Below, one piece after another: positions 16,582-44,439 of a stretch of 64,000 bases of DNA. The notes beneath the pieces were generated by a model that saw only the letters and a program-made list of their open reading frames with translations, did no database searches and was not told the origin of the DNA. The DNA lies in the NCBI GenBank assembly GCA_026398415.1, contig JAPLSY010000030.1:21306-85305 (forward strand), read 5' to 3'. Source of the DNA: Kiritimatiellota bacterium (GTDB taxonomy: Bacteria > Verrucomicrobiota > Kiritimatiellia > JAAZAB01). Position 1 is the stretch's first letter. Each line of letters starts with the position of its first letter. Position numbers and translations under genes: made by a program.

Positions 16582-16587
16582 GAAAAA

Positions 16588-20323: not shown

Positions 20324-20381
20324 GGAAGCTGACAAAAAAGGAGGCATCATTACCACACCTTGGAAGAGATGGCGGATCGCA

Positions 20382-21605
20382 TTGATGGGGGTGCTGTTGC
20401 AACTCTGCCTGGGCACGGTTTATGCCTGGAGCTATTTCCAGAAACCGCTGGTAGCCGTCTACGGGTGTTCAAACAGCCAGATCGCTTGGGGCTTTTCGCT
20501 GGCTATTTGTTTCCTGGGCCTGTCCGCCGCCTGGGGCGGCCTTAACCTGGAACGTTTCGGACCCCGACGATTGGCCATGACGGGTGGATTCCTTTACGCC
20601 CTCGGCTACCTGATCGCCGGCTGGGCCATTGCCTCAAAATCCCTGGTCTGGCTGTATCTGGGGTTTGGCGTGATCGGCGGGATCGGCCTCGGGTTGGGCT
20701 ACGTCACGCCCGTCGCCACGGTCGCTAAGTGGTTCCCGGACAAAAAGGGACTTGTCACCGGAATGGTGGTGATGGGGTTCGGTTTCGGCGCCCTGATCAT
20801 GGCCAAGATCATTGCCCCGCTCTTGATGACGGCGACCGGACAGAATCTGCCGCAAGTTTTCTTTTGGATTTGCGGCATAATGCTTGTCATGACATTGCCG
20901 GCGGCCGCTTGTTTGCAGAATGTCCCTGCGGCCCAGTCCGGCCGGCAATCCGGCGCAACACCGGTGGCATCCGCCAAAACAGCCTTGAAATCCAGCGCCT
21001 TTAGGCTGATGTGGCTTGTATTTTTCATCAACATCACAGCCGGAATAATGTTCATCGGCTTTCAATCGCCAATGTTGCAGGATCTCATGCATGCCAAAAA
21101 TACGGAATTGACGGCAGGAGTATTGAGCGCAGCCGGCGCCACGCTCATTGCCATCAGCTCATTGTTCAATGGTTTTGGGCGGCTGTTCTGGGGCGCGATT
21201 TCCGATAAGCTGGGACAAATCCGGGTGTTCCGGCTGATTCTGATCAGCCAGATATTCGTGTTTGCCGGGCTCATCGTCGTGCGGGAACCATGGCTGTTCG
21301 GCGTATTGGTCTGTTACGTACTGCTGTGCTATGGCGGCGGATTCGGCGTCATGCCGTCGTTTACCGGAGTCATGTTCGGGCAGTCGGTCATGCCCACAGT
21401 TTATGGCACGATTCTTACGGCCTGGTCGGCCGCGGGGATTGTGGGGCCCCAGCTGGCCGCTTTCATCAAGGACCATTACGCCGAACAGGCCGGACGGCTG
21501 ACGTTCAGCGTGGCGGTACTATTACTGTTGGTGGGCGCGGCCTTGTCGTTTCGGCTTCGCCCGCCTACACCCCCCGGCAAAGGGGACAGGCCGGATTGCG
21601 GTTGA
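20382..21605 (+). CDS. OFA family (oxalate/formate antiporter-like) MFS transporter
   Basis: QLCLGTVYAWS, KWFPDKKGLVTG..VMGFG, FNGFGRLFWGAISDK, YGGGFG; start may be further upstream (ATT at 20349). Confidence 0.9.
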   Translation: MMGVLLQLCLGTVYAWSYFQKPLVAVYGCSNSQIAWGFSLAICFLGLSAAWGGLNLERFGPRRLAMTGGFLYALGYLIAGWAIASKSLVWLYLGFGVIGGIGLGLGYVTPVATVAKWFPDKKGLVTGMVVMGFGFGALIMAKIIAPLLMTATGQNLPQVFFWICGIMLVMTLPAAACLQNVPAAQSGRQSGATPVASAKTALKSSAFRLMWLVFFINITAGIMFIGFQSPMLQDLMHAKNTELTAGVLSAAGATLIAISSLFNGFGRLFWGAISDKLGQIRVFRLILISQIFVFAGLIVVREPWLFGVLVCYVLLCYGGGFGVMPSFTGVMFGQSVMPTVYGTILTAWSAAGIVGPQLAAFIKDHYAEQAGRLTFSVAVLLLLVGAALSFRLRPPTPPGKGDRPDCG

Positions 21606-32036: not shown

Positions 32037-33050
32037 CTACCCAAGCTTGCCTGCGCGATGAGCGGCAATAAAATTCATGCCAAAATCGTCCGTGCCCAGC
32101 AGGAGCGCCTTGGCCAGCTGGAACGGCTCCGCGTTTGCGTCCAGACCCTGAAGGATTTTGGCATTGATCTGGAGCGGGTCCACAATACCGCCATCGCCGC
32201 CGGCTTCCACCGCCAGATAAGCGAAGACCTGGTTGATCAGCTTGCGGGCGGGCATGCCAAAGGACACATTGCTCAAGCCGCCGATAATGTGAACGGCGGG
32301 ACCGTACTTTGCCCGGATCGCTTGCACGGCGGCCAAAAACATCTTGCCGTTGTTCGCTTCCGTGGAAATTGTATAAACAAGCGGGTCCACGTGAATCCAA
32401 TCCATCTGGATGCCCTTGGCCGTCAACTGCGGGATCAGCCGTCCCAAATTATCCAGGCGTTCCTCCGTGTTAGCAGGCAGGCCTTTTTCACCGGCGGCGG
32501 AGGCCACCACGGCCGGTTTATACTCGGCCACCGCGCCCAGGAGCCCGATGCGCTCCAGGGAAATGGAGTTCACCATCGGCCGACCGCGGGCTTTTTCGCA
32601 GGCTTTCAGGCCGGCGCGCATGATATCGCTGTTGGAGGAATCGATGCTGAGCGGCAGGCGGGAGGCGCCCTGGACCAGCGCCGCCGTCCACTGCACAGCC
32701 TTGATCCGTTCCGGCAAATCCATGCTGAATTCATCCACGTTTACATCGAGGAACGAAGCCCCGGCCTTCTCCTGCTTGGCCGCCATGACCCGCAGGTAAT
32801 CGCAACCGGCTTCCTGCGCGGGTCCCTGTCCGTAAAGCCCCTGCCAGATCGCCGCAACGCAGTGCTTGATTTTTCCGTTTTCCCAGTCGGCGCTTTTCAA
32901 TAAAATTTCGGGAATGGGCAATGTTTTCTTCTTGCCGCCATCGTCATAGCGAATGACGCGCGCAGCGGCATCCACCAGGTTGCCATCGCGCTTCAGCACG
33001 CGCGTGCAATGAATGTTCTCACCGATCACAATAAAGGTTTTGATCTGCAT
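32037..33050 (-). CDS. Methyltetrahydrofolate:corrinoid methyltransferase (pterin-binding TIM barrel, AcsE/MT2 type)
   Basis: VIGENIH, LDVN, PLSIDS, MVNSI, VDPLV, GGLSNVSFGMP, IVDP. Confidence 0.88.
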   Translation of the reverse strand: MQIKTFIVIGENIHCTRVLKRDGNLVDAAARVIRYDDGGKKKTLPIPEILLKSADWENGKIKHCVAAIWQGLYGQGPAQEAGCDYLRVMAAKQEKAGASFLDVNVDEFSMDLPERIKAVQWTAALVQGASRLPLSIDSSNSDIMRAGLKACEKARGRPMVNSISLERIGLLGAVAEYKPAVVASAAGEKGLPANTEERLDNLGRLIPQLTAKGIQMDWIHVDPLVYTISTEANNGKMFLAAVQAIRAKYGPAVHIIGGLSNVSFGMPARKLINQVFAYLAVEAGGDGGIVDPLQINAKILQGLDANAEPFQLAKALLLGTDDFGMNFIAAHRAGKLG

Positions 33051-33153
33051 AATTCAGCCTTTCCATTGTATGGTTCCAACTCTCTTCACAACGACGCCGA
33101 TTAATATACGCCAACCGCCCGACCCGACAAGCAAAATTGGCGCACCACGACGG

Positions 33154-33191
33154 AAAAAAACCGCCCCGCTGGAGTTACCCAGCAGGGCGGC
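33154..33191 (-). terminator. Rho-independent terminator after corrinoid protein gene
   Basis: Minus strand CCGCCCTGCTGG-GTAACT-CCAGCGGGGCGG-TTTTTTT. Confidence 0.8.
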
Positions 33192-33219
33192 TTTAAATAT
33201 ACAGGACAATAGACCGAGT

Positions 33220-33858
33220 TTACTTGACGCCCGACAGCTTTTTCGCCAAATCGGCGGCCGAAGCGGCATCCGGCGCGTAACCATCGGCGCCGATCTCATC
33301 GGCAAACGCCTGGGTCACGGGCGCGCCGCCGATCATGACCTTGACTTTGCCGCTCATACCCGCCGCCTTGACGGCTTCCACGACGCTCTTCATATTGGTC
33401 ATGGTGGTCGTCAGCAGGGCGGAGGCCCCGATCAGGTTGGCGTTATTTTCCTTGGCCAACTGGACCATTTTATCGGGCTCCACGTTGATGCCCGCATCCA
33501 CGATCTTGAAACCAGCCCCTTCCAGCATCATGCACACCAGGTTTTTGCCAATGTCATGCAGATCGCCCTTGACGGTTCCCACAACGACCGTGCCCTTCGG
33601 CTGAACACCGGCGGCGGCCAGGAGCGGCTTCAACTGTTCCATACCCGCTTTCATAGCGCGGGCGGCAATCAGCACTTCCGGCACATAGACTTCGTTCTTC
33701 TTGAACCGCTCGCCGATAATGCTCATGCCGGACAGCAAGCCCTTATTCAGAATGTCGGCCGGTTTGATCTTTTCCGCGACGGCCTTCGCGACTAGTTCCT
33801 TAACGTCCTTGGCCTTACCCTTGATCAAGTTCTCCGTGATTTGCTCCAATACGCTCAT
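33220..33858 (-). CDS. Corrinoid (cobalamin-binding) protein, MtbC/MttC/MtvC type
   Basis: N-terminal cap (GLLSGM..IGERF..NEVYVPE), GDLHDIGKNLV (DxHxxG), SALLTTT, GGAP; RBS AGGAGG. Confidence 0.93.
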   Translation of the reverse strand: MSVLEQITENLIKGKAKDVKELVAKAVAEKIKPADILNKGLLSGMSIIGERFKKNEVYVPEVLIAARAMKAGMEQLKPLLAAAGVQPKGTVVVGTVKGDLHDIGKNLVCMMLEGAGFKIVDAGINVEPDKMVQLAKENNANLIGASALLTTTMTNMKSVVEAVKAAGMSGKVKVMIGGAPVTQAFADEIGADGYAPDAASAADLAKKLSGVK

Positions 33859-34010
33859 GTAACCCTCCTGTTTGCCCGCCTGCATCCGGCAGTTGCCGGA
33901 AGCATTGCGGGCAGTTTATTACCCGGCTTGTTTACGACGTTGATCCCTTTGCCCAATTCGATCTAAAAACACAGCCTTACCATACGGGAACCCCGGTTAA
34001 AAGATAGACA

Positions 34011-34039
34011 AATAATGCTTGATTTTATAACATTCTTGC
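34011..34039 (+). promoter_or_regulatory. Third instance of the 21-bp-spaced AnTnnTGC direct repeat, between corrinoid gene and second PocR-AraC
   Basis: AATAATGC (34011-34018) and ATTCTTGC (34032-34039). Confidence 0.45.
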
Positions 34040-34069
34040 TGTATTTAAAAAAATAGTGCCGAATATTGA

Positions 34070-35395
34070 ATGTTTTTCAAGCCGGCAAGGCCTGGTTTTA
34101 TGACAATTCTATCCAAACGCATGATCGCGGAAGTTAGCCGATCCTACCACCAAACTTTCGGTTTGTACGCCCTGCCCATCACCATCAGCGGCGAACGCTG
34201 GCCGGACCGGCCATCGCCGGCGGACCGCTCATCAGCAGCGGACCGGGCACACCGCTTGTCAGCGGCGCACCGCTCGTTAGTGGAGCGCCTGCCGACGGCC
34301 GTGCAGACGCGAGCCTACAGTTTGCAGGAAGCATTGCATTGGGGCGAACCGTACCTGTTTTATCCCGTGGCCGGCCTGATGAGCTGGGTGGTGGCCTTGG
34401 TGGACCAGCATGCCGTGCGGGGCGGCCTGCTGGGCGGCGAGGTGCGCCCCCAGGGTCAACCACTGGCCGAAAGCATACAGGGCCTGGTAGGCCAGGGCAT
34501 TGCTCTGTCGGCCGCGCGGCAATACATCGCCCGCCTGCCGATCTGGAACGCCGCGCGTATTCGGGAAGCGGCCGTGGCCCTGGAAAAAACATTTTATCAG
34601 GTCAGCGGCTGGAAGCCGCTGCTCCTGGAGGAAAACCGGCTCAAGGCCGCCCAACAGCGGCAAATCGCGGAAGCCATCGAAGATCAGAAAAAAAACGGCA
34701 AGACCGCCTACCCGATTGACAAGGAACGCATGTTGCTCTCGCTGATCCGCGCAGGCGATCAGAACGGCGCGCGGCGCGTGCTTAATGAAATGTTAGGCGC
34801 CATGTACCTGTTTTCGCCCAAGCTGGCGGTCCTGCGCGCGCGGAGCATCGAAATGATGGGCTACCTTACGCGGGCCGCCGTCGAGGACAGCCCGCTCATG
34901 GAGCCGCTCATCGAGCGCAACCACCACTGGATGCAAAAGCTCATCAGCGCACCCGATTTTGAAATGCTGTCCCACGTGCTGATGCAGGCCCTGGACGACT
35001 TCATGCAGGGCATTTATGCACATGGCTTCAACGTCTATAACCCCAAGGTCAGCCGCATCCTCGACTTTGTCGCCCAGCATTATACCAAGCCGATCACGCT
35101 GGAGCAGATCGCCACGGCCACGGACCTGAGCGTTTTCCGCGTAAGTCACCTGGTGAAGCAAAACACAGGCAAGTCCGTCCTCCAGCACGTCATGCAGTTG
35201 CGCATCCAGAAGGCGCGGCAGTTGCTGGAACGCTCGTCTCTCAGTTGTTCGGAAATCGCCTACGAGTTGGGATTCTGCGATCAGAGCTATTTCATCAAGC
35301 ATTTCAAGCGCCTGACCGGAATCACCCCCCGGCGTTATCGCCGCGCGCCCTCGACGTTCGGGCCTGCGGTTCAAACACCACCCTTGCGCTCCTAA
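34070..35395 (+). CDS. AraC-family regulator with PocR-like sensor domain
   Basis: GEPYLF..VAGL...RGGLLGGEV; CSEIAYELGFCDQSYFIKHFKRLTGITPRRYR; start may be 34100. Confidence 0.88.
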   Translation: MFFKPARPGFMTILSKRMIAEVSRSYHQTFGLYALPITISGERWPDRPSPADRSSAADRAHRLSAAHRSLVERLPTAVQTRAYSLQEALHWGEPYLFYPVAGLMSWVVALVDQHAVRGGLLGGEVRPQGQPLAESIQGLVGQGIALSAARQYIARLPIWNAARIREAAVALEKTFYQVSGWKPLLLEENRLKAAQQRQIAEAIEDQKKNGKTAYPIDKERMLLSLIRAGDQNGARRVLNEMLGAMYLFSPKLAVLRARSIEMMGYLTRAAVEDSPLMEPLIERNHHWMQKLISAPDFEMLSHVLMQALDDFMQGIYAHGFNVYNPKVSRILDFVAQHYTKPITLEQIATATDLSVFRVSHLVKQNTGKSVLQHVMQLRIQKARQLLERSSLSCSEIAYELGFCDQSYFIKHFKRLTGITPRRYRRAPSTFGPAVQTPPLRS

Positions 35396-35523
35396 TCCGG
35401 TTTTGGCATCCTCCCCCATGCAAGCGCTCTTTCAGGCTGGTTTTAATGGGTGCGTATCCGTACCGCCCGAAAAGCGCTTTCTTATCACCCGGACAAACAG
35501 TGCAAATTAATAAAAAAGAAAAT

Positions 35524-36480
35524 ATGAAGGCGGCGCTTGAACGTCGCCAGCCTGAATGGGCGGTGCCCATATGGGAACTTGAATTCCATATTTGGAATTT
35601 ATTTTCAGACAAAAAAATAATTCTGGGCACAGAGTTTGTCTCGCTGACGGCCGGCGAACAGGAACGTGCCCTGCATATGAACGCCGCGGTCATGGCCGAC
35701 GTTGCCGCGAAAATGCATTTTTCGGCGATGACGGTTCCCGGCGGTTACTGGGAAATTGCGCCCGGCAAACCGGCCTATTACTGGCTACCGCCTGAGGCGC
35801 GCTTACGGCAAACCGCAATCCTTGTTGAGGCGGTTGGTGCTGAAATCCTGCTGATCGCCAATACCGGCGGTGTTATAAGCATGCCGGGTTCCAACGACTA
35901 CGTGGAATTTTCCTACAAACTCTTCGATGCCCCGGAAGAAATCGATGCGCGGGCCCGCAACACGTTAGCGTCGGGCCTGGATAGTGCAAAACGTTTACGG
36001 GATTTAGGGGTCGAGGGCATGTGTTCCCCGTCGGACATTGCGGATAACAAGGGGCTGTTTTTCAATCCGGAGCAAATGCGGCGTTTTATTCTGCCCTATC
36101 TCGGCGAGTGGGCGCGGGAGGTCAAAAAGCTCGGCGCTTACAGCATTCTGCACACGGACGGCAATCTATCTGCGTGCCTGGAAGATATTGCCGCCAGCGG
36201 CATTGACGCGCTCCAGGCAATCGATCCGGTTGCCGGAATGGATATTCGCAAAGTAAAAATCCAAGCAGGTAAACGGCTGTGCCTCTGCGGCAACGTTGAC
36301 TGCGGTTTGTTGCTGTCCGGAATGCCCGCTGATGTGTACCAGGCAACGCGCGATCTGCTGTTGGACTGCAAGCAAGGTGGCGGACTTGTGCTGGGAGCAT
36401 CTAATGCCATCCAACAGGAAGTTTCCAGAGCTAACTATTGCGCCATGATCGAAGCATGGAAAGATTATGGCCGGTATTAA
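35524..36480 (+). CDS. UroD/MtaA-fold (methylcobamide methyltransferase-like) protein
   Basis: SDIADNKGLFFNPE.MRRFILPY, ILHTDGN, LCGNVD, GGGLVLGASN; lacks HemE MRQAGR motif; start uncertain (GTG 35500). Confidence 0.85.
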   Translation: MKAALERRQPEWAVPIWELEFHIWNLFSDKKIILGTEFVSLTAGEQERALHMNAAVMADVAAKMHFSAMTVPGGYWEIAPGKPAYYWLPPEARLRQTAILVEAVGAEILLIANTGGVISMPGSNDYVEFSYKLFDAPEEIDARARNTLASGLDSAKRLRDLGVEGMCSPSDIADNKGLFFNPEQMRRFILPYLGEWAREVKKLGAYSILHTDGNLSACLEDIAASGIDALQAIDPVAGMDIRKVKIQAGKRLCLCGNVDCGLLLSGMPADVYQATRDLLLDCKQGGGLVLGASNAIQQEVSRANYCAMIEAWKDYGRY

Positions 36481-36576
36481 GATTCATAAAACGATGATTT
36501 TACACAAACATCAGCGTTGCGGTGATTACCTCAATAAAGACGGTGTATAAACTATTCACCCTGTTGGAGAAAATTA

Positions 36577-37614
36577 ATGAAAAAGTACCGTGTTGCAATT
36601 ATTGGCTGCGGAAATCGCGGCAGAGATCATGCAAAATCGTATAAATGGTTGCCGGAAGCTGAAGTCGTCGCCGGATGCGATGTAGCTTCGGAGAAAAGCC
36701 ATAAATTTGCCGGGGAATTCGGAATACTTCCGTATACTGACCCCGAAAAAATGCTGAAAGAAGTGAAGCCGGACCTGGTGCATATCACCACCTATCCGGA
36801 TGTGCGTGTTCCATTGATGATGCTGGTCTCGGATTGTAATGTTCCGGCCTGCACAACCGAAAAACCGGTTGCTGCAAGGGTTGCCGACTGGAAACAGCTG
36901 TGCGCGTTGGAGGCCCGCAGCAAAACCCGCTTTGCCGTGAGTCATCAGTGCCGCTGGCAAAAGAATTTTGTCAAGTGTCACAATGCCCTCGAATCAGGAC
37001 AACTGGGGCAGGTAAAATTTCTGGATATGTCCGCAGGCATGAACATTTCCGGGCAGGGCACCCATATTTTGAACTATGCCATGGCGTTTAATAATAACGT
37101 TCCCGTAAAGAGTGTCTTCGGCGCGGCAAGCGGAACCGCGGAAATGTCCGCCGTTCATCCCGGACCGGACACCACTATCGGCTATTTGACCTTTGAAAAT
37201 GGAGTGCGCGCCCTGTGGAATAACGGTCCGACCGCTCCGCGTTGCGGCGACCCGGATGTCTTCTGGAAGCATGTGCGGGTGGCGGCTTATGCCGAATTGG
37301 GACGGGTCAGTTGGGAAGAGTTCAATCACTGGGAAATTGTATCGCCAAAAGGGGTTGAATCCGGAGACTACGGCGGCATGGATACCTGGACAGAGAATAA
37401 TCTCAAATCCCAGGCTGATTTTCATCGGGCCATGCTCAAGTGGATTAAGGATCCCGGCAAAATACCGGGAACAAATCTCAAACAATCACTGCATGAATGG
37501 AAGGTTGTCCTGGCGCTTTATGCCAGCGCGCTGGAGCGGAGGCCGGTCCAGCTCGACAGTTTCAATCCGCAGGACAATCTTTTCGAATGCCTGGAAAAAG
37601 CCCTGAAAAACTGA
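36577..37614 (+). CDS. Gfo/Idh/MocA family oxidoreductase
   Basis: VAIIGCGNRG..H, VAGCD, EKPVA, VSHQCRW, QGTH. Confidence 0.9.
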   Translation: MKKYRVAIIGCGNRGRDHAKSYKWLPEAEVVAGCDVASEKSHKFAGEFGILPYTDPEKMLKEVKPDLVHITTYPDVRVPLMMLVSDCNVPACTTEKPVAARVADWKQLCALEARSKTRFAVSHQCRWQKNFVKCHNALESGQLGQVKFLDMSAGMNISGQGTHILNYAMAFNNNVPVKSVFGAASGTAEMSAVHPGPDTTIGYLTFENGVRALWNNGPTAPRCGDPDVFWKHVRVAAYAELGRVSWEEFNHWEIVSPKGVESGDYGGMDTWTENNLKSQADFHRAMLKWIKDPGKIPGTNLKQSLHEWKVVLALYASALERRPVQLDSFNPQDNLFECLEKALKN

Positions 37615-37703
37615 CCATTGGAATGTCGGCGGGAATGGCGGAATTTCCGCAATGCGAAGGTTGGTATGCTGTGGTCGCATGAAACGAACAAAGGAATAAC
37701 TAA

Positions 37704-38741
37704 ATGAAAGTCGTCGGCATCATCGGAGAACGTCAAAGCCAATTAGTGGAAAAACCTGACCCGCACGCCCGGGGGGAGTTGGCGCTCGTCAAGATTATTG
37801 CGGTCCCCATGTGCACGGAGTACAAGGGATTTGAATCCGGAGGGAAGACCTGCTGCCTGGGGCATGAGGCGGCCGGAGAAGTTGTCGAAGTTGCCCAACC
37901 CTCGCGGGTAAAAGTGGGCGATCGTGTAGTCGTCATGCCCCTTTATGCTTGCGGTCAATGCCCGCTTTGTCTGAAGGGCGACTACATTTATTGTCAGCAC
38001 CAGCTTGATTTCCCAAAAGTCACCGGGCAGGCCACGGGCAACGTCACCTACGCGCAATATCTGCTGAAACAAGATTGGCTGCTTGTTCCAATTCCAGACA
38101 AAGTCTCTTACGATCACGCCAGCATGGCCTGCTGCGGGTTGGGCCCGACTTTCGGGGCCATGCAACGCATGCAGGCGGATGCTTTCGATACGATCCTGAT
38201 TGCCGGCATGGGGCCCGTGGGCTTGGGCGGTATTATCAACGGCTTATTCAGGGGCATGCGCGTTATTGCCGTGGAATCACATCCTTATCGGGCCAAGCTT
38301 GCCCTGAAGCTTGGCGCAACGGCGGTCATTAATCCACAGGAAGCCGATCCGCTCGGACAGATCATGGATTTGACGCATGGCCTGGGTGTGGACAAATTCA
38401 TCGACTGTACCGGCATCCCGGCTGCCCAGCGGCTTGGCATTGACGCCGTTCGCCGCAGAGGCCAGGTTGCTTTTGTGGGCGAAGGCGGCAACCTGAATAT
38501 TCACGTCGGCAATGATATGCTGCGCAAGGGCTTGACCCTGCACGGTTCCTGGCACTTCAACCTTGGCGATGTTCCGCGGCTGATGCAGGTCATAATTAAA
38601 TCGGCCAAATTGCTGGACGAACTGATCACGCACAAATTTGCCATGGAAGATATCCAGCGCGCATTTGAACTCCAGTCGACTAAAAACTGCGGGAAAGTAA
38701 TCCTGTATCCGTGGCAAAAATCCGGTTCATTGGCAACATAG
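37704..38741 (+). CDS. Zinc-binding (MDR) alcohol/sugar dehydrogenase
   Basis: MCTE, GHEAAGEV, CGQCPLC..GDYIYC, GMGPVG. Confidence 0.9.
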   Translation: MKVVGIIGERQSQLVEKPDPHARGELALVKIIAVPMCTEYKGFESGGKTCCLGHEAAGEVVEVAQPSRVKVGDRVVVMPLYACGQCPLCLKGDYIYCQHQLDFPKVTGQATGNVTYAQYLLKQDWLLVPIPDKVSYDHASMACCGLGPTFGAMQRMQADAFDTILIAGMGPVGLGGIINGLFRGMRVIAVESHPYRAKLALKLGATAVINPQEADPLGQIMDLTHGLGVDKFIDCTGIPAAQRLGIDAVRRRGQVAFVGEGGNLNIHVGNDMLRKGLTLHGSWHFNLGDVPRLMQVIIKSAKLLDELITHKFAMEDIQRAFELQSTKNCGKVILYPWQKSGSLAT

Positions 38742-38842
38742 ATATTTTTACCGCCAAAGCGGATTTACTGAACTCATACAGTCATAAGTTCGCGCACCTC
38801 TCTGACCGCCGTCTGTTGAGGCCAACAATCGTTCTTTGAGCG

Positions 38843-38998
38843 TCATTTTTTGTTTCCCGTGGCTGGGGGATTCGAGTCCAGAACCTGTTTGACGATATCC
38901 ATGCCCACCAACCGGCTCCAGGCTTCGGTCAGGCGCTTGAACATCGGGCCGGGACGGCCGTCGCCAATGGAGACCCCATTGATGCGGGTCACCGGCGC
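38843..38998 (-). pseudogene. Duplicate 3' end of the class IV aminotransferase gene
   Basis: 38874-38998 matches 43496-43620 at 123/125 nt; reads ...RLVGMDIVKQVLDSNPPATGNKK-stop. Confidence 0.9.
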
Positions 38999-39175
38999 GG
39001 GCAACGACTTCGATCAGATTGGTGTGCGCCCATCCCCAATTGGTCCACGGCGGGGTCGGCGACGGTTGTTGGCTCGACGTCACCACGTAATAATTCGTTG
39101 CGCTGCCCAGGGCGTTATCAGGGTCATCGCCAGTCCCAACCCGAGAAACATCCGTTGCAAGTATTGCGTTTTCAT
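38999..39175 (-). pseudogene. Frameshifted 5' fragment of a secreted protein paralogous to the 60838-62235 gene
   Basis: MKTQYLQRMFLGLGLAMTLITPWAA(-1 nt)...PTPPWTNWGWAHTNLIEVVA aligns with 60841-61017; fused to aminotransferase 3' end. Confidence 0.88.
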
Positions 39176-39257
39176 CGTGCGCCTCACTTTATCTTATGTG
39201 CTTCGCTTTGTTTTTCGAACATATTGACAAGAGTCTGTTGCCGCAGTAGCCACCCAT

Positions 39258-40880
39258 CTATGAACCCTTGAAGTAGAACTCAACCCAGTTCACAGTGACG
39301 GCTTTGAGCGCGCGAATCTCGATCAGGTTATAGCCTTCGTTCATTGCGGACTTTGGCACGCTGTACCCGCAGACAGGGCCGGTCGGCGCGGGATTCTGCA
39401 ACTTGACATCGCCGGAAAACGCACAGACGAAACCATTGACTCTGACTGTCAGCGTGGATGCGTCGAATGCGCCTGTTTCACTGCCCAACATCACGCTGAC
39501 TTCCTCGGTGTCCGGCTTTGGCCCCGTGTGAATGCGGAATCTGTAGTGCGCCCCCGGATAGGTGGTTACGGGAAGCTGATAAATTTTGGGCTCGCCGGGG
39601 GCGGCAACGTCGTGATACGTAAGCACGTGACGCCTGGTCTTCCCGCGTATCGTCTTGAGGTCCCCAATTTCCGACATAACTTTGTGGTGCCTCGGGTCTG
39701 CCGGAACGCTGTCAAACATGTTGAACGTGTATATTCTGTCGGCCCCGCGAACCAGGTATGAAGCGGCGCTGCCGCGGAGGGTCTCGATAGAATTGCCCTG
39801 CCTTGGAAACGACAGGGTTGGGCTTATCCCGGCCTCCAGGCCGGCGGCGATTTTCACCTTGGTCTTCAGCAGCAGCCGCTTCCAGATGTCTATGGGCATG
39901 TCGTTGTCAATGGTTTGGAAAAACGGGGTCGGCACGATCCAGTCGATCAGCCCTTCTTGCGCCCATGTCGCGACATCGTAGCCCATCAGCAGCGCCGTTT
40001 CTGGGCGATAGGGAACGCGCGCAGAAAGCGCTATGCGATGCCCAACACGCTTCTCGGCGGCGTCCATCACACGGCGCGCCTCGCGGATGAACTCAGTGAG
40101 CTGTTTGGCGCCCTCGGCCTCGTGTCCCGGCCGGAACAGATAACCAAACCGCATGAAGTCCATTTCGAAGCCGTCGAAATCATAGCGCTGGGCCAGTTCG
40201 CGAATCAGCTTCATATGGTATTCGCGAACTTCGGGATGCCCGTAGTCGAGCGCGTTATCGCTCCAGTCGCCGACCATGCCTTCCGTGTAGTTGACGCGCC
40301 GGAATTCAGGATGTGCGCGCCAGAAATCGCCGTGCAGATAGTAGTTTGGATCGTGGACGCCGTGGATATCGTTCATGCGCATACTGATCCAGGGAGCTAT
40401 GCCCAGCTTGCGACAGCGCTCCGTCCACACCTTGTAAGGATCAATGCCGTCCTGGTTCAGTTGCCAGGCCAACTGAATCCACGCCCGAGCGCTCTTCTGC
40501 TCATTCGTGGGCACGCTGGCAAACAGCGGCTGATTGTCCGGACCGTTGGGGTCCAGACCCTTCCAAACAGGCGTCCACACTTTGCTGTCGTAGCTCGTGC
40601 GCTGACAGTTCGGGTTGAAGAGCATGGCCTTGATCTGCGTGTCGGCGTACTGGTCGACAAACGCCTCCACTTCAGCCAAAGACAGTTTTTTCATTGCACG
40701 GCGGGCGTGGAAGAAGTGGGAAGCATCCTCATTGAACATTATCCCGGTTACTCCCGCCGGGTGCTCGACGCTCTTGAGCACGAGACCGCGCTCCTTTTCT
40801 CCCGGCCCATTTGCGCGCCAGAACAACAACATCAGGGCGGCGATACAGACCACTAAAATAAGGAAACCGAGTTTCATCAT
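39258..40880 (-). CDS. Putative glycoside hydrolase (GHL10/DUF187-like TIM barrel) with N-terminal anchor
   Basis: SMRMNDIH, LDYGHPEVREY, YDFDGFEMDFMR, QEGLIDWIV. Confidence 0.6.
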   Translation of the reverse strand: MMKLGFLILVVCIAALMLLFWRANGPGEKERGLVLKSVEHPAGVTGIMFNEDASHFFHARRAMKKLSLAEVEAFVDQYADTQIKAMLFNPNCQRTSYDSKVWTPVWKGLDPNGPDNQPLFASVPTNEQKSARAWIQLAWQLNQDGIDPYKVWTERCRKLGIAPWISMRMNDIHGVHDPNYYLHGDFWRAHPEFRRVNYTEGMVGDWSDNALDYGHPEVREYHMKLIRELAQRYDFDGFEMDFMRFGYLFRPGHEAEGAKQLTEFIREARRVMDAAEKRVGHRIALSARVPYRPETALLMGYDVATWAQEGLIDWIVPTPFFQTIDNDMPIDIWKRLLLKTKVKIAAGLEAGISPTLSFPRQGNSIETLRGSAASYLVRGADRIYTFNMFDSVPADPRHHKVMSEIGDLKTIRGKTRRHVLTYHDVAAPGEPKIYQLPVTTYPGAHYRFRIHTGPKPDTEEVSVMLGSETGAFDASTLTVRVNGFVCAFSGDVKLQNPAPTGPVCGYSVPKSAMNEGYNLIEIRALKAVTVNWVEFYFKGS

Positions 40881-40935
40881 AATTACCTTTCATAAGTACG
40901 CCTCGCCGGCCCGTGTTCCATATTCGTCTTACTTT

Positions 40936-42102
40936 CTATTTTTTCTGCCAGCACGTTTGGACGGCCCGGCTCAGCGCATACAAGCATTCCTCGGGAGTAT
41001 CGGGACCAAAAGCTTCCGCCGTTCCCACAACCAACCCACGGCCATCGGGTGCCTGGGTGAAAAGTGCTTCAACCGCTTGCTGGATGGTCTGTTGATTTCC
41101 TCGTTCAAAAACATAAATGGGGTCCAGTGCGCCCATGAGGCAGATTTTATTTCCCCACTTTTTTCGGATCTCTCCAAAGACGCAGTCGCCGACCGGCGGG
41201 GGTTGCAGTCCGCTGACAATATCGACCCCCAGGTCCGCCAGAAATGGGAAAATGTCGGTCATCCTGCCGTCGTCTTGATAGCGGTAATAAGCCCCATAAT
41301 TTTTCACCAGCTGAACGCTTTCGCGGATGAGGGGATGGAAAAATTCCTTAATATGATCAGGTGACCAGCCGACCGACGGCCCGCATTGGAACCAACTGAC
41401 GGCGATGTGCCGATGACCGGACTCCAAAACGGTTTTCAGGAGACGAAGATGCTGATCCTGGCAGACGCGGAGCACGGCATGTAAAAGGGGCTTATTATCC
41501 ACGGCACAGATGAGCATGTTTTCCGGTCCCAGCGCTTCCATACCCCAGGTCCCGGCATTGGAACCTTCGAGAAATTCAACCACGCCCCGTTCGCCGACAA
41601 TTTGCGAAAACAGTTTCAGGTCAGTGACGAAGTTTTTTCGCGGCGCCGGGTAAAGATGCTTTAACGCGGGAATGTCGTCCAGGGATTTGACCAGGGGTTC
41701 TTCCCGATGGGGGTTGGGACCATCGCCATAGCCCATGTCCGGCCGTGCCCAGGCAATCCGGTCGGTCAACGTACCATCCGGGGTGTGGAATTGGCGGATA
41801 TGAATGGTTTGGTCCGTTGCATTTTCCACCCGAATATCGATTTTAACCCCGGGCAAATCCCGGTATCCGCCGTCGGGGCGATAGACGTAATCGGTGGCCA
41901 TCGGATGATTTAAATACAACCCGTACATGATCATGGCATCGAATCCGAACGTTTCGCAGGCCTGCAGTTGGTGCATTTCGCAGGGACAGCCCCATCGTCC
42001 GCGTATCCAGCGAATAAGGTTGGGCATTACCGCGGGGCGGTCCGTGTCCTTCCTCGAAAAAGCGGCCAGCAAACGTTGCCGCGGCGTCATTGTTATAGTC
42101 AT
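40936..42102 (-). CDS. UroD/MtaA-fold protein
   Basis: MTPRQRLLAAF, TPDGTL, YQDDG, ICLMGALDP, GLVVGTAE. Confidence 0.82.
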   Translation of the reverse strand: MTITMTPRQRLLAAFSRKDTDRPAVMPNLIRWIRGRWGCPCEMHQLQACETFGFDAMIMYGLYLNHPMATDYVYRPDGGYRDLPGVKIDIRVENATDQTIHIRQFHTPDGTLTDRIAWARPDMGYGDGPNPHREEPLVKSLDDIPALKHLYPAPRKNFVTDLKLFSQIVGERGVVEFLEGSNAGTWGMEALGPENMLICAVDNKPLLHAVLRVCQDQHLRLLKTVLESGHRHIAVSWFQCGPSVGWSPDHIKEFFHPLIRESVQLVKNYGAYYRYQDDGRMTDIFPFLADLGVDIVSGLQPPPVGDCVFGEIRKKWGNKICLMGALDPIYVFERGNQQTIQQAVEALFTQAPDGRGLVVGTAEAFGPDTPEECLYALSRAVQTCWQKK

Positions 42103-42134
42103 TATTGAAATCCTTTCAGTATCATCACCAAAAG

Positions 42135-43310
42135 TTAATATCCATGTGAAGTATTGATAAGCAGGTCGATTCTTTCCGGATCCGTATGCATTGTCACGCA
42201 ACTGCCTGTCGAAGTGATAAAACGTCCATCCTTTCCCGCGACATCGATCTGATGTTTGACTTTTTTTATAATATCCTCTTTAAGCCCTTTTTCCAAAAGA
42301 TTAATAGCATCTAGATTGCCAACAAGCGCAATGTCATTTCCTACTCTTTTTCGCACATCGGCAATATCAATGTTGAATGTTTCTTCAACATGCAGGGCAT
42401 CAATATCCATCTCCAATAATTTTTCAAGCCTGGGCACAACATTACCCGTAAGGTAATATTTCACCATAAGCCCTAAATGTTTTGCTTCTGCAACCAGTTC
42501 TTTCTGGTACGGGAAACTGAATTCATCATAGACCTGAGGTGAAATCATGTCGGAACCGGTCCAGATTTCGCCTGTATGTATGCCGTCAGCTCCATAATCT
42601 TTGACTACTTTCAGATATTCCATTTCCTGTTCCATCATTCTATTAAGCAAATATTTCAAAAGCTCCGGATTTTCATTTATCATTATAAAACCGCTATTGA
42701 GCCCCAAAATCCCCACAGCCAGGCGGAATACAGAACCGACCCCACCCGCTTCTACGTATAAGCCGGGGTCGCATTGCTTTTTAAAAAGCTTGAGTGTATC
42801 CCAAAATCCTCTTTGCTTGACCGAGGCTGCTTGCTCAAGCGGAAACAACCGGTCAATATCTTCTTTGGAACTAATCGGGTACTTGTCATCCATGGTCATG
42901 AACTGCTGCCCGTTGACAATGACTTCAATCTCACCGTGCATTATAAATGGCTTTTCACGAGGGGGGATTGAATCTCTGTACTGGGCATGGTAATTGCTGC
43001 CCAGTTTGTATTTCTTACCGCTTTCCTTCTCTATTAAATATGCCTCGCCGTTATTTTTTATTTCGACATCATGGTTTTTTATCCAATTACTGGTACGGCC
43101 TTTAGCCCACAAAATAAAACTGTCGGGTTTAAATCTTTCAACACACGCAAGCTGCGCCCTGGTGCGGTAATTCACGTCCTGGTAAAGAAATTTATAGGGC
43201 GGTATGCCGGATACCCCACAGATCGCTTCTGTACTGAAAAACAGTTCAACAGGAACAACATCTGTTTCTTTGCCTTCCATGACGGAAATTATTCTTTCCC
43301 TGGAATTCAT
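42135..43310 (-). CDS. UroD/MtaA-fold protein (AT-rich gene)
   Basis: MNSRERIISVMEGKE.DVVP, GSDMISPQVYDEFSFPY, YLTG, LVGNLD, GRFITSTG. Confidence 0.85.
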   Translation of the reverse strand: MNSRERIISVMEGKETDVVPVELFFSTEAICGVSGIPPYKFLYQDVNYRTRAQLACVERFKPDSFILWAKGRTSNWIKNHDVEIKNNGEAYLIEKESGKKYKLGSNYHAQYRDSIPPREKPFIMHGEIEVIVNGQQFMTMDDKYPISSKEDIDRLFPLEQAASVKQRGFWDTLKLFKKQCDPGLYVEAGGVGSVFRLAVGILGLNSGFIMINENPELLKYLLNRMMEQEMEYLKVVKDYGADGIHTGEIWTGSDMISPQVYDEFSFPYQKELVAEAKHLGLMVKYYLTGNVVPRLEKLLEMDIDALHVEETFNIDIADVRKRVGNDIALVGNLDAINLLEKGLKEDIIKKVKHQIDVAGKDGRFITSTGSCVTMHTDPERIDLLINTSHGY

Positions 43311-43485: not shown

Positions 43486-44439
43486 TCACATACTAGAGTC
43501 CAGAATCTGTTTGACGATATCCATGCCCACCAACCGGCTCCAGGCTTCGGTCAGGCGCTTGAACATCGGGCCGGAACGGCCGTCGCCAATGGAGACCCCA
43601 TTGATGCGGGTCACCGGCGCCAGGGAATAGGGCGTGGTCGGCAAAAAGGCCTCATCGGCGTTCATGACGTCATGAACCTGAAAATCGCGCTCGACGAATG
43701 GGATTTGCATCTCGCGACACAGGTCCATCACGGTCAGCATGCTGATGCCCGGGAGAATATTGCGGGGCAAGGGCGAGATTACACTCCCGTTTTTGACGAT
43801 CAGGAAATTGGAGCCGCCGGTCTCGGTAACATTGCCGTCCAGGTCTAGGCACAGGGCCACCGCCTTCGGGTCCGTCAAGTGCGCCTCCTGATCCGCCAGC
43901 CACCAGTGCATCCGACTGCGGCATTTGATTTTTGGGTCCACGCATTGCGGCGGCACGTGACGAATGGAGGGCGTGACCACATGAATGCCGTCCGTAAAAG
44001 CCTGCTTCCAAAGATAAAACGGGATCGGAAATGTGTGCATGCAGAAGGTCGGTTCCATCTTGCCCGACATCCCGGCGCCGCCGGCATAAATTTTCAATTC
44101 GCCCGGCGAGAGAAATAAAACCAGCGACAGGTCTTCCTCGGGTTTCAACAGAGCGGCATTGCGCTCGGTCAACTCGCGGCAGATCCGCGTTGTTTCGTCG
44201 GCCGATTCCACGGGATAAATGCGCGTATATTTACACGAACGATAAAACCGCGCAATGTGATCTTCCAACCGGAAAAGCCGGTGGCGGAACGTTCGCACCA
44301 GGTCCGTGACGGTCGCGCCGAGCACGACGGACGCGTCGTAGATGGCCACATGCGCCTGCGATGCCGGGATCATTTTGCCTTTCAGATAAACCAAGGGTTC
44401 CTGGGCGTTAAGCTTGGCTGCTTTTCCTTTTGCCTGCAT
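43486..44439 (-). CDS. Class IV PLP-dependent aminotransferase (IlvE/PabC/Dat family)
   Basis: LFRLEDHIARF, KIKCRSR (PLP lysine), TETGGSNF, LPGIS, DEAFLPTT. Confidence 0.9.
   Translation of the reverse strand: MQAKGKAAKLNAQEPLVYLKGKMIPASQAHVAIYDASVVLGATVTDLVRTFRHRLFRLEDHIARFYRSCKYTRIYPVESADETTRICRELTERNAALLKPEEDLSLVLFLSPGELKIYAGGAGMSGKMEPTFCMHTFPIPFYLWKQAFTDGIHVVTPSIRHVPPQCVDPKIKCRSRMHWWLADQEAHLTDPKAVALCLDLDGNVTETGGSNFLIVKNGSVISPLPRNILPGISMLTVMDLCREMQIPFVERDFQVHDVMNADEAFLPTTPYSLAPVTRINGVSIGDGRSGPMFKRLTEAWSRLVGMDIVKQILDSSM
43496..43620. repeat. 125-bp direct repeat partner of 38874-38998
   Basis: Two mismatches by direct comparison. Confidence 0.95.

What the first reader, a model, noticed from the sequence alone, without database searches (positions are those of the whole stretch)
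32037..43310. Cobalamin methyl-transfer system embedded among sugar-processing genes: candidate anaerobic O-methyl-sugar demethylase
Seen: corrinoid protein and pterin-binding methyltransferase are divergent from a PocR-AraC, a UroD-fold protein, a Gfo/Idh/MocA oxidoreductase and a Zn-dehydrogenase; two more UroD-fold genes sit with a putative glycoside hydrolase. Established: acetogen O-demethylases use substrate-specific MT I, a corrinoid protein, MT II to THF and an ATP-dependent activator; MtaA-type methyltransferases share the UroD fold; known O-methyl-galactose demethylation in marine bacteria uses an O2-dependent P450. Inference: these UroD-fold proteins demethylate methylated sugars released from polysaccharides, passing methyl to THF and then to the MetVF-Hdr-Mvh complex. 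The activator gene is not in the window.
Basis: partly seen in the sequence, partly recalled or inferred. Interest (0 to 1): 0.8.

Follow-up and report, generated by a model that had tools for sequence, protein, structure and literature searches.

The report
B12 methyl-transfer hub beside sugar genes
An uncultured anaerobic sugar-degrading bacterium has one vitamin-B12 carrier protein with its partner enzymes but about 51 candidate methyl-removing enzymes, many of them among sugar-cleaving genes, which fits an oxygen-free way of removing methyl groups from sugars that has not been shown.

Summary
All nine genes are real and have the stated folds. The "putative glycoside hydrolase" is in fact a close homologue (about 58% identity) of the founding GH156 exo-sialidase. 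The missing RACE activator lies elsewhere in the genome.

1. The corrinoid protein and pterin methyltransferase form a lineage-wide hub resembling a split methionine synthase. In relatives, a homocysteine methyltransferase sits between them. This genome has that module as a stand-alone gene and has no fused MetH.
2. The adjacency of the UroD-fold and sugar genes to the hub is specific to this genome. It is absent in the closest relative, and the GH156/UroD-2/UroD-3 block is a 4.6-kb insertion.
3. The genome has 51 URO-D-fold and 7 MttB paralogues but only one corrinoid protein, one THF methyltransferase and one activator.

Across 60 relatives, URO-D expansion co-occurs with a small corrinoid protein plus RACE. 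This also holds where a separate MetH exists.

Orthologues of UroD-1 elsewhere lie directly behind corrinoid proteins, or next to fucosidases, rhamnosidases and sulfatases.

A sugar methyl-ether substrate is plausible (about 0.35-0.4) but untested. No acetyl-CoA synthase or MtaB was found, so the methyl group is probably oxidised or used for methionine.

The parts
32037..33050 (-). MT II: methyl-corrinoid:tetrahydrofolate methyltransferase (pterin-binding barrel). It is the only one in the genome apart from FolP.
   Evidence: Pfam Pterin_bind 1.5e-21. NCBIfam PRK07535 196 bits. The genome-wide PF00809 search finds only this gene and a FolP-like gene. It is conserved downstream of the CP in relatives.
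33220..33885 (-). Corrinoid (B12) carrier protein, cap domain plus Rossmann domain, DxHxxG motif. It is the only such protein in the genome.
   Evidence: Pfam B12-binding_2 plus B12-binding. The closest NCBIfam models are MtgC/pyl_corrinoid. PF02607 gives one hit in the own genome. 560 relatives were found; the closest is 93% identical, in a Verrucomicrobiota MAG.
33886..34069 (.). Divergent intergenic region between the CP operon and the PocR-AraC gene
   Evidence: Sequence read. sigma-70-like matches lie on both strands. The divergent AraC/CP arrangement is conserved in 21 of 60 CP loci.
34070..35395 (+). PocR-AraC regulator, the conserved divergent partner of the CP operon
   Evidence: Pfam HTH_18 2e-22, PocR 24.8 bits. 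Orthologues of 41-82% identity lie next to the CP in relatives.
35500..36480 (+). UroD-1: URO-D/MtaA-fold protein, candidate methyl-donor:corrinoid methyltransferase (MT I)
   Evidence: URO-D 4.8e-19. The family has invariant H-x-D-G and C-L-C-G-N-x-D-C-G motifs. AF2 pLDDT 91; UroD/MtaA fold with TM about 0.7. Orthologues lie directly downstream of corrinoid proteins in KSB1 and other contigs.
36577..37614 (+). Gfo/Idh/MocA NAD(P) sugar oxidoreductase
   Evidence: Pfam 2.3e-17. The best PDB matches are sugar 3-oxidoreductases of the DgpA type and inositol dehydrogenases, over the N-terminal domain only. It belongs to a family of 27 paralogues, 6 of them near URO-D genes.
37704..38741 (+). Zn-dependent (MDR) alcohol/polyol dehydrogenase
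   Evidence: Pfam ADH_N plus ADH_zinc_N. PDB matches are threonine/polyol dehydrogenases. A 47%-identical orthologue lies two genes after a UroD-1 orthologue in L167.
38830..38842 (+). Terminator-like hairpin that would end the AraC-UroD-1-GFO-ADH unit
   Evidence: Pattern scan. This is a consensus match only.
38874..38998 (.). Relic copy of the 3' end of the class IV aminotransferase gene; left border of the 4.6-kb insertion
   Evidence: 125-nt direct repeat, 98% identical to 43496-43620.
39258..40880 (-). GH156-family exo-sialidase homologue with an N-terminal signal/anchor
   Evidence: PDB 6rzd E = 6.8e-179 over residues 41-537, about 58% identity. The hydrophobic N-terminus was read. It has 24 paralogues in the genome.
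40936..42102 (-). UroD-2: divergent URO-D-fold protein without the His-x-Cys motif
   Evidence: URO-D 4e-14. No PDB sequence match. 132 homologues. Orthologues lie next to GH123/GH20/GH2, GH76, or PocR-AraC/URO-D/CobW.
42135..43310 (-). UroD-3: URO-D-fold protein, closest in sequence to true UroD but not HemE; low G+C; nearly an orphan
   Evidence: URO-D 1.7e-36; hemE model 62 bits against a cut-off of 303. G+C is 0.48 here against about 0.56. Only one close relative is known (48% identity), next to BNR_2, GFO and an aminotransferase. It is found in only 2 of 60 relatives.
43486..44439 (-). Class IV aminotransferase. Its 3' end (43496-43620) is the right copy of the 125-nt repeat.
   Evidence: Pfam Aminotran_4 5.6e-35. 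Repeat found.
18150..21605 (.). Second PocR-AraC, divergent from a MetF-like gene and an MFS transporter. This module travels with the CP hub in relatives.
   Evidence: Pfam. MetF-like and MFS genes lie beside CP/MTII in L051, L052, L062, L068 and L079.
4894..17862 (-). HdrA-like / MvhD / MetV-MetF / hydrogenase operon; the likely route for methyl-THF
   Evidence: Pfam MTHFR, DUF5981 (MetV), FlpD and HdrA-like domains. This is the subject of a separate finding and was only partly checked here.

Best explanation
The corrinoid protein (CP) and the pterin-binding methyltransferase are the single shared hub of a modular methyl-transfer system resembling a split methionine synthase. The other fixed parts are a stand-alone homocysteine methyltransferase (contig C21) and an ATP-dependent RACE reactivator (contig C43). 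The hub is controlled by a PocR-AraC regulator.

The three URO-D-fold genes in the window are 3 of about 51 dispersed URO-D-fold paralogues, alongside 7 MttB paralogues. These most likely act as substrate-specific methyl-donor:corrinoid methyltransferases (MT I) that load Co(I) on this one carrier. The carrier then passes the methyl group to THF (via MT II) or to homocysteine.

No acetyl-CoA synthase was found. Methyl-THF is therefore probably oxidised through the neighbouring MetVF-Hdr-Mvh module, or used for methionine.

The donors are probably methylated compounds released from glycans. Candidates are O-methyl deoxyhexoses for UroD-1, and methylated sialic-acid-type sugars for the GH156-linked UroD-2 and UroD-3. 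The demethylated sugar would then go to the GFO and Zn-ADH enzymes.

Shown: gene content, folds, synteny and phyletic co-occurrence. Inferred: that the URO-D proteins use the carrier, the direction of methyl flow, and every substrate.
For: Domains and motifs.

One of each fixed part in the genome: one RACE; one CP; one MT II; a stand-alone S-methyl_trans gene at 224 bits; CobS present and a cobalamin riboswitch.

Many candidate donor enzymes: 51 URO-D hits and a family of 7 MttB paralogues.

Hub synteny: PocR-AraC | CP - (HcyMT) - MTII - (MetF-like) recurs in PVC relatives.

Phyletic coupling: URO-D expansion occurs together with a small CP plus RACE in 44 of 47 genomes, against 3 of 14 genomes without expansion. 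All 8 of the genomes I counted as having a separate MetH-size or core-MetH-size gene plus URO-D expansion also have a small CP and RACE.

UroD-1 orthologues:
- They lie directly after a CP in operons of the form GntR/PBP - URO-D - CobW - CP - UroD-1 - HcyMT - MetH activation domain - URO-D.
- They lie next to GH27/GH101/SSF genes.
- Among 86 neighbouring ORFs from about 22 metagenome loci there are 4 GH29, 3 GH78, 2 GH106 and 2 sulfatases.

Neighbours in this genome: DegT 7 of 17 (p = 4e-4), MttB 4 of 7, AraC 5 of 13, GH4 3 of 7, GFO 6 of 27, Zn-ADH 4 of 14.

The only relative of UroD-3 sits by a BNR sialidase-like gene. UroD-2 orthologues sit by GH123/GH20.

Experimental precedent for a dual-use carrier plus bidirectional THF methyltransferase: MtgC/MtgD in PMC12478193.

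No CdhC and no MtaB were found.
Against: - No biochemical precedent for corrinoid-dependent cleavage of aliphatic (sugar) methyl ethers was found in six literature searches.
- The alkoxide is a poor leaving group.
- One carrier serving about 58 donor enzymes would be unusual. Known systems pair each MT I with its own carrier.
- Most URO-D genes are far from the hub. Only 11 of 60 CP loci hold a URO-D gene within 10 kb.
- The adjacency in this window is not conserved.
- UroD-2 and UroD-3 lack the His/Cys motif. All three score far below the MtaA/CmuA cut-off.
- Neighbour enrichments are modest and not corrected for multiple tests. The GH29/GH78 tally has no background control.
- The phyletic correlation could partly reflect shared ancestry.
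- Gene calls in the own genome come from my own crude ORF model.
Confidence: 0.5

Rival explanations
1. The CP/MTII pair, with the stand-alone homocysteine methyltransferase and RACE, is only a split methionine synthase. The URO-D-fold proteins are unrelated, cobalamin-independent sugar-processing enzymes of unknown reaction that happen to be abundant in the same lineages.
For: The order CP - S-methyl_trans - MTII occurs in 12 of 60 CP loci. The genome has no fused MetH. Most URO-D genes are not near the CP. UroD-2 and UroD-3 lack the Zn motif. Earlier notes from this scan repeatedly report URO-D arrays 'with no corrinoid partner'.
Against: Genomes that already have a MetH-size or core-MetH-size gene still carry a small CP plus RACE whenever URO-D is expanded, and not otherwise, with two exceptions. 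UroD-1 orthologues are operonic with CP, CobW, HcyMT and the MetH activation domain, without any pterin methyltransferase. That arrangement makes sense only if a URO-D protein supplies the methyl group. 16 paralogues keep the MtaA-type His-x-Cys motif. A large MetVF-Hdr-Mvh module sits beside the hub although no acetyl-CoA pathway was found.
Confidence: 0.2
2. The URO-D-fold proteins are corrinoid-dependent MT I enzymes, but their donors are not sugars. Candidates are methoxylated aromatic aglycones released by rhamnosidases and other glycosidases from plant glycosides, or methyl-thiol, methyl-selenide or methyl-amine compounds.
For: All characterised URO-D-superfamily MT I or MT2 enzymes act on aryl methyl ethers, chloromethane or thiols (Odm/Vdm, CdmB, MtaA/MtsA/MtpA; PMC10418091, PMC13222342). 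GH78 and GH106 rhamnosidases also act on flavonoid rutinosides. MttB paralogues, which act on quaternary amines, cluster with URO-D genes.
Against: Neighbours include fucosidases, sulfatases, GH156/BNR sialidase-like proteins, GH123/GH20, GH27/GH101, sugar isomerases and aldolases, sugar transporters and LacI/GntR-PBP or AraC-cupin regulators. No aromatic-degradation genes were seen in these neighbourhoods. The organism is a PVC glycan specialist.
Confidence: 0.2
3. The URO-D-fold proteins work in the MtaA direction (MT2). They would take methyl from the methylated carrier, loaded from methyl-THF, and place it on thiol or hydroxyl acceptors, for example during glycan or cofactor modification.
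For: The closest solved structure and NCBIfam models are MtaA/MtbA methylcobamide:CoM methyltransferases. 16 paralogues have the His-x-Cys motif. MT II enzymes are reversible (PMC12478193).
Against: The contexts are catabolic (secreted glycosidases, transporters, dehydrogenases), not biosynthetic. Sugar methylation is normally SAM-dependent. 51 acceptor-specific methylases would have no obvious role.
Confidence: 0.05

Closest known systems
Acetogen/Desulfitobacterium aryl O-demethylases (OdmABCD, Vdm, MtvABC) and the chloromethane system CdmBCA
   Same: A four-part logic: a URO-D-superfamily MT I, a small corrinoid protein, a THF-methylating MT II and a RACE-type ATP-dependent activator.
   Different: Here there is one carrier, one MT II and one activator for about 58 candidate MT I genes. 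The MT I genes are dispersed in glycan loci instead of each lying in an operon with its own carrier. No acetyl-CoA pathway was found. Known substrates are aryl ethers or CH3Cl, not sugars. UroD-1 matches CdmB only at E = 0.04.
MtgB/MtgC/MtgD of Ruegeria pomeroyi (PMC12478193)
   Same: A core corrinoid protein and a bidirectional THF methyltransferase serve both methionine synthesis and demethylation of a methylated substrate. The CP here scores best against the MtgC models.
   Different: That system is aerobic and uses one MttB-type MT I for glycine betaine. Here the organism is an anaerobe with RACE, a separate homocysteine methyltransferase, and a very large set of URO-D-fold candidates.
MtaA/MtbA/MtsA methylcobamide:CoM methyltransferases (PDB 4ay7; TIGR01463)
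   Same: The fold is the same (TM about 0.65-0.7). The motif region aligns. 16 of the genome's paralogues keep His-x-Cys.
   Different: UroD-1 has His-x-Asp plus a Cys-x-Cys-x4-Cys block. UroD-2 and UroD-3 lack the motif. Scores are 31-77 bits against a cut-off of 235. There is no coenzyme M context.
Type 1 mlp gene clusters (Kountz & Balskus, PMC10418091)
   Same: Several MtaA-like URO-D proteins occur with one corrinoid protein and a RACE activator in non-methanogenic anaerobes. The THF methyltransferase is often absent.
   Different: Those clusters are compact and mostly in Firmicutes, and are proposed to act on methyl-sulfur or methyl-selenium compounds. Here the genes are dispersed, sit in sugar contexts, and occur in the PVC group.
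GH156 exo-sialidase ORF12p (PDB 6rzd; PMC6254351, PMC6811678)
   Same: The 39258-40880 product is about 58% identical over the whole enzyme. The founding member is also closest to PVC bacteria and sits beside a fucosidase.
   Different: This copy has a signal/anchor, is one of 24 paralogues, and is flanked by two URO-D-fold genes. Its substrate is untested.
P450-dependent oxidative demethylation of 6-O-methyl-D-galactose in marine Bacteroidetes (from my own knowledge; not retrieved here)
   Same: It would be the same physiological task: removing a methyl ether so that the sugar can be catabolised.
   Different: It needs O2 and releases formaldehyde. The system proposed here would be anoxic and would conserve the methyl group on THF.

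Membership tests
Three-component corrinoid methyltransferase system (MT I / CP / MT II + RACE) | Small corrinoid protein with a cap domain, a Rossmann B12 domain and the DxHxxG motif | tested here: met
   PF02607 plus PF02310. GDLHDIGKN read.
Three-component corrinoid methyltransferase system (MT I / CP / MT II + RACE) | Pterin-binding methyl-corrinoid:THF methyltransferase | tested here: met
   PF00809 1.5e-21; PRK07535 196 bits, below its cut-off of 259. It is adjacent to the CP.
Three-component corrinoid methyltransferase system (MT I / CP / MT II + RACE) | ATP-dependent reductive activator (2Fe-2S plus ASKHA) | tested here: met
   One gene on contig C43 with Fer2, RACo_linker, Raco_middle and RACo_C_ter domains. 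It is not in the window.
Three-component corrinoid methyltransferase system (MT I / CP / MT II + RACE) | A substrate-specific MT I that is genetically coupled to the carrier | tested here: inconclusive
   UroD-1 lies 1.6 kb from the CP here, but not in relatives. Its orthologues are operonic with a CP in other phyla. Phyletic coupling is strong.
Three-component corrinoid methyltransferase system (MT I / CP / MT II + RACE) | A corrinoid supply | tested here: met
   CobS is present and CbiD is absent, which suggests salvage. A cobalamin riboswitch scores 67 bits on contig C21.
Three-component corrinoid methyltransferase system (MT I / CP / MT II + RACE) | Methyl transfer from donor to Co(I) carrier to THF | not testable with these tools
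   Needs anoxic enzymology.
MtaA/CmuA family (TIGR01463) | Score above the family cut-off | tested here: not met
   54, 31 and 77 bits against a cut-off of 235.
MtaA/CmuA family (TIGR01463) | His-x-Cys...Cys zinc site | tested here: not met
   UroD-1 has H-T-D-G plus CLCGNxDC. UroD-2 reads Q-D-D and UroD-3 reads Y-L-T at that position. The alignment of such divergent paralogues is uncertain.
Uroporphyrinogen decarboxylase HemE (TIGR01464) | Score above the equivalog cut-off over the full length | tested here: not met
   17.5 bits, no hit, and 62 bits against a cut-off of 303. True HemE in relatives scores 280-445 bits on PF01208, against 47-116 bits for these three genes in the same search and 169 bits at most for any paralogue in this genome.
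Split cobalamin-dependent methionine synthase / MtgCD-type dual hub | Separate Hcy-binding, pterin-binding and B12-binding modules, and no fused MetH | tested here: met
   S-methyl_trans 224 bits at C21:111930-112868. The order CP-SMT-MTII is contiguous in 7 relatives. The genome has only one PF02607 hit.
Split cobalamin-dependent methionine synthase / MtgCD-type dual hub | The carrier is required for methionine synthesis | not testable with these tools
   Needs genetics or enzymology.
GH156 sialidases | Full-length similarity to the characterised founding member | tested here: met
   6rzd E = 6.8e-179, residues 41-537 against 3-500.
GH156 sialidases | Catalytic residues and sialidase activity | not tested
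   Catalytic positions were not mapped. Activity needs an assay.

The most novel reading that the evidence does not exclude
Anaerobic PVC bacteria, and by orthology KSB1, Planctomycetota and others, remove methyl ethers from sugars without oxygen. Dozens of substrate-specific URO-D-fold methyltransferases, embedded in glycan-degradation loci, would all dock on one free-standing corrinoid protein derived from a split methionine synthase. The sugar's methyl group would then be conserved as methyl-THF (for energy, via MetVF-Hdr-Mvh) or as methionine. UroD-1 would act on O-methyl fucose or rhamnose. The GH156-linked pair would act on methylated sialic-acid-type sugars.
Probability: 0.35. Interest if true: 0.9.

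Novelty: new variant of a known kind. Interest (0 to 1): 0.68.

Why it matters
Methyl-ether decorations are common on plant, algal, cyanobacterial and microbial polysaccharides. Examples are 2-O-methyl-fucose and 2-O-methyl-xylose, 3-O-methyl-rhamnose, 4-O-methyl-glucuronate, 6-O-methyl-galactose and methylated sialic acids. The only demethylation route I know of needs O2.

If URO-D-fold enzymes do this job through a B12 carrier, several things would follow:
- A gap in anaerobic glycan breakdown, in sediments, digesters and guts, would be filled.
- A new B12 demand in glycan degraders that only salvage corrinoids would be revealed.
- Thousands of "uroporphyrinogen decarboxylase family" annotations would be explained.
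- A source of C1 units, H2 or formate from polysaccharides would be added to anoxic carbon budgets.

This genome is a good test bed because it has exactly one carrier, one MT II and one activator, so only one set of partner proteins must be made to screen all 51 candidates.

Tried and rejected
- HemE function is rejected (scores).
- A canonical MtaB methanol route is rejected. No MtaB was found in the genome.
- Acetogenesis as the methyl sink is rejected. No CdhC was found.
- A conserved operon linking UroD-1/GFO/Zn-ADH to the hub is rejected. It is absent in L047 and other relatives.
- A conserved GH156-UroD-2-UroD-3 module is rejected. UroD-3 occurs in only 2 of 60 relatives, and the block is flanked by a 125-nt repeat.
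- The GH156-like family as a whole is not enriched near URO-D genes (2 of 24), nor is the beta-helix family (2 of 30).
- Rfam found no riboswitch in the window.
- Foldseek confirmed the fold only and gave no hint about the substrate.
- Six literature searches found no report of corrinoid-dependent sugar demethylation and none on Kiritimatiellia/Lentisphaerae corrinoid methyltransferases.

Full report
**1. What is in the window**

- The minus strand carries a pterin-binding methyltransferase (MT II, 32037-33050) and a two-domain corrinoid protein (CP, 33220-33885) with the DxHxxG motif.
- Divergently, the plus strand carries a PocR-AraC regulator (34070-35395), a URO-D-fold gene (UroD-1, best start GTG 35500, ending at 36480), a Gfo/Idh/MocA oxidoreductase (36577-37614) and a Zn-dependent dehydrogenase (37704-38741).
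- A terminator-like hairpin follows at 38830.
- Next comes a minus-strand block of a 540-aa protein (39258-40880), UroD-2 (40936-42102) and UroD-3 (42135-43310), and then a class IV aminotransferase.

The 540-aa protein gave only sub-threshold GHL10/GH18 hits in Pfam. Against solved structures it matches the founding GH156 exo-sialidase (6rzd) at E = 6.8e-179 over its whole length, at about 58% identity. That enzyme is characterised in PMC6254351. So "putative glycoside hydrolase" can be sharpened to a GH156 sialidase homologue with a signal/anchor.

**2. The rest of the machinery in the genome**

The window lies in a 3.29-Mb MAG that is 93% complete.

The genome holds one full-length RACE activator (Fer2 + linker + middle + ASKHA). 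CobS is present but CbiD is not, which points to corrinoid salvage. A cobalamin riboswitch is present.

The genome has only two Pterin_bind genes: a FolP-like gene and this MT II. It has only one protein with the B12-binding_2 cap domain, namely this CP.

By contrast it has 51 URO-D hits, all above the Pfam cut-off, and a family of 7 MttB paralogues. No CdhC and no MtaB were found. The organism is therefore not an acetogen and has no canonical methanol route.

The CP's closest public relatives are MAGs labelled Verrucomicrobiota, Kiritimatiellia, Victivallales and Lentisphaerae.

**3. The hub resembles a split methionine synthase**

I compared 80 CP loci from other genomes. The conserved core is PocR-AraC, then divergently CP, then MT II. 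A MetF-like gene, an MFS transporter and a second PocR-AraC often follow, and these also lie in this window at 18150-21605.

In 12 of 60 loci the CP is followed immediately by a gene 39-68% identical to this genome's C21:111930-112868. In 7 of those loci MT II follows in turn. Pfam shows both the C21 gene and the L049 gene to be full-length homocysteine S-methyltransferase modules.

The hub is thus CP + HcyMT + MeTHF-MT + RACE, in a genome without fused MetH.

There is an experimental precedent for such a carrier doing double duty. [quoted passage not shown] The CP here scores best against the MtgC models.

**4. Do the URO-D paralogues use the hub?**

Three lines of evidence say probably yes.

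(a) Phyletic profile across 60 relatives.
- 44 of 47 genomes with at least 2 non-HemE URO-D genes have both a small CP (about 210-350 aa) and RACE. The three exceptions are G002 (70% complete, no RACE), G015 (no CP hit) and G034 (an ambiguous CP hit at a contig edge).
- 11 of the 14 genomes without URO-D expansion have neither a small CP nor RACE.
- Fisher p = 2.7e-7 by genome. Collapsed to one observation per family (27 families in all), p = 7.7e-5.
- By my reading of the open-frame lengths, the eight genomes that have a MetH-size or core-MetH-size gene and URO-D expansion all carry a small CP and RACE. The nine with MetH but no expansion carry neither. The carrier is therefore not explained by methionine synthesis alone.

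(b) In KSB1 and other contigs, UroD-1 orthologues (53-63% identical to UroD-1) lie directly after a CP. The operon reads GntR/periplasmic-binding regulator - URO-D (540 aa) - CobW - CP - UroD-1 - HcyMT - MetH activation domain - URO-D. It contains no pterin methyltransferase. Here only a URO-D protein can supply the methyl group.

(c) 16 of the 49 paralogues I could align keep the MtaA-type His-x-Cys motif, and 20 have His-x-Asp. The UroD-1 family has invariant H-x-D-G and C-L-C-G-N-x-D-C-G blocks. Its model is confident (pLDDT 91) and has the UroD/MtaA fold.

There is also evidence against.
- UroD-2 and UroD-3 lack the motif.
- All three score far below the MtaA/CmuA cut-off.
- Only 11 of 60 CP loci hold any URO-D gene within 10 kb.

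**5. Is the substrate a sugar?**

Only context bears on this.

*Own genome.* I examined the 233 genes within three genes of a URO-D paralogue. They include 10 AraC regulators, 9 GFO oxidoreductases, 7 DegT sugar aminotransferases, 4 MttB, 5 BNR_2 proteins, 3 GH29 fucosidases, GH42, GH4, GHL6, xylose-isomerase-like barrels and Zn-ADHs.

Against paralogue families defined in the whole proteome, the hypergeometric results are as follows:

| Family | Members near a URO-D gene | p |
|---|---|---|
| DegT | 7 of 17 | 4e-4 |
| MttB | 4 of 7 | 2e-3 |
| AraC | 5 of 13 | 4e-3 |
| GH4 | 3 of 7 | 0.02 |
| GFO | 6 of 27 | 0.03 |
| Zn-ADH | 4 of 14 | 0.03 |

These p values are not corrected for the roughly 60 families tested, so only DegT would survive correction.

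*Outside this genome.*
- UroD-1 orthologues sit with GH27 x2, GH101, a pectate-lyase-like protein and an SSF symporter, or with a sulfatase and a fucose-isomerase-like gene.
- Among 86 flanking ORFs from about 22 metagenome loci there are 4 GH29, 3 GH78, 2 GH106, 2 sulfatases, 3 GntR/PBP regulators, 2 ROK proteins and 2 Zn-ADHs. I ran no background control for this tally.
- One contig repeats the order UroD-1 - aldolase - Zn-ADH, with the Zn-ADH 47% identical to the window's.
- UroD-2 orthologues lie by GH123/GH20/GH2/DUF4838, by GH76, or by PocR-AraC/URO-D/CobW.
- UroD-3 has a single close relative, which lies by a BNR sialidase-like gene, a GFO and an aminotransferase.

The recurrent partners are therefore enzymes that release deoxyhexoses and sialic-acid-type sugars.

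This fits O-methyl sugars as donors, but it does not prove it. Aglycones or other methylated compounds remain possible. Six literature searches found no description of a corrinoid-dependent sugar demethylase. The nearest reports are aryl O-demethylases, CdmBCA and the mlp clusters (PMC10418091, PMC13222342).

**6. The local arrangement is recent**

In the closest relative (L047, whose CP is 93% identical), the AraC gene is followed by the homologue of window 56696-57853, a 2-hydroxyacid dehydrogenase. UroD-1, GFO and Zn-ADH are absent there. So window 35.4-56.7 kb is variable.

The GH156/UroD-2/UroD-3 block is flanked by 125-nt direct repeats (38874-38998 and 43496-43620, 98% identical). These duplicate the 3' end of the aminotransferase gene. 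The UroD-3 region has low G+C (0.48 against about 0.56). A transposase fragment lies at 44601-45236. The "embedding" is therefore an accident of this genome, although it is consistent with the general habit of URO-D genes.

**7. Proposed mechanism**

Steps marked S are shown at the level of gene content. Steps marked I are inferred.

1. Secreted glycosidases, GH156 among them, release decorated monosaccharides (I).
2. After uptake, a cytoplasmic URO-D-fold MT I transfers the methyl group to Co(I)-CP (I).
3. MT II passes it to THF, or the stand-alone HcyMT passes it to homocysteine (S for the modules, I for the direction).
4. RACE rescues Co(II) (S for the gene).
5. No acetyl-CoA synthase was found, so methyl-THF is oxidised by the adjacent MetVF-Hdr-Mvh module and the MetF-like/MFS pair, or is used for methionine (I).
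6. The demethylated sugar is oxidised by GFO and Zn-ADH (I).

**8. Verdict**

- My confidence is about 0.85 that the hub is a corrinoid methyl-transfer module, about 0.6 that URO-D paralogues load it, and about 0.35-0.4 that the donors are methylated sugars.
- Earlier notes in this scan report URO-D arrays in sugar loci of many other genomes, usually "without a corrinoid partner". Those are unchecked AI notes. What this genome adds is the complete and unique partner set and the phyletic test.

Noticed in passing
window 38874-38998 and 43496-43620: 125-nt direct repeats (98% identical) flank a 4.6-kb block holding GH156, UroD-2 and UroD-3. The left copy is a relic of the 3' end of the aminotransferase gene, so the block looks like an insertion by recombination. 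The UroD-3 region has low G+C (0.48).
   Followed up: partly
window 39258-40880 and genome-wide: The genome carries about 24 paralogues of the GH156 sialidase-like family, 28 BNR_2 proteins, 30 beta-helix proteins, 27 GFO oxidoreductases and 17 DegT aminotransferases. This repertoire suggests a specialist on sialic-acid-like or amino-sugar-rich glycans.
   Followed up: partly
G000:C21:107023-107262 (L214 3024-3263, minus strand): A cobalamin riboswitch (67 bits, E = 5e-15) lies upstream of a radical-SAM/SPASM gene. It is about 5 kb from the stand-alone homocysteine methyltransferase.
   Followed up: no
L002, L006, L156, L157 (KSB1 and related contigs): A conserved operon reads GntR/PBP regulator - URO-D (540 aa, with a thioredoxin-like part) - CobW - corrinoid protein - UroD-1 orthologue - homocysteine methyltransferase - MetH activation domain - URO-D. 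It looks like a THF-independent route from a methylated substrate straight to methionine.
   Followed up: partly
window 44601-45236: A transposase fragment (DUF772) lies beside the variable 35-57 kb region. In the closest relative that region is replaced by about 1.3 kb.
   Followed up: partly
window 45461-45998: A 253-nt tandem duplication (79% identical) lies inside the 866-aa Kelch/FG-GAP gene.
   Followed up: no
G000:C61:4219-6084: A 621-aa gene matches both the homocysteine methyltransferase and MetF queries. It is probably a YitJ-type bifunctional HcyMT/MTHFR, and so a second possible route to methionine.
   Followed up: no
G000:C6:8803-21832 and C59:2192-20022 (L009, L039): These islands combine two URO-D paralogues with an MttB paralogue, an Amidohydro_2 gene or two GH4 genes. 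Two different MT I folds sit together, far from the only carrier.
   Followed up: no
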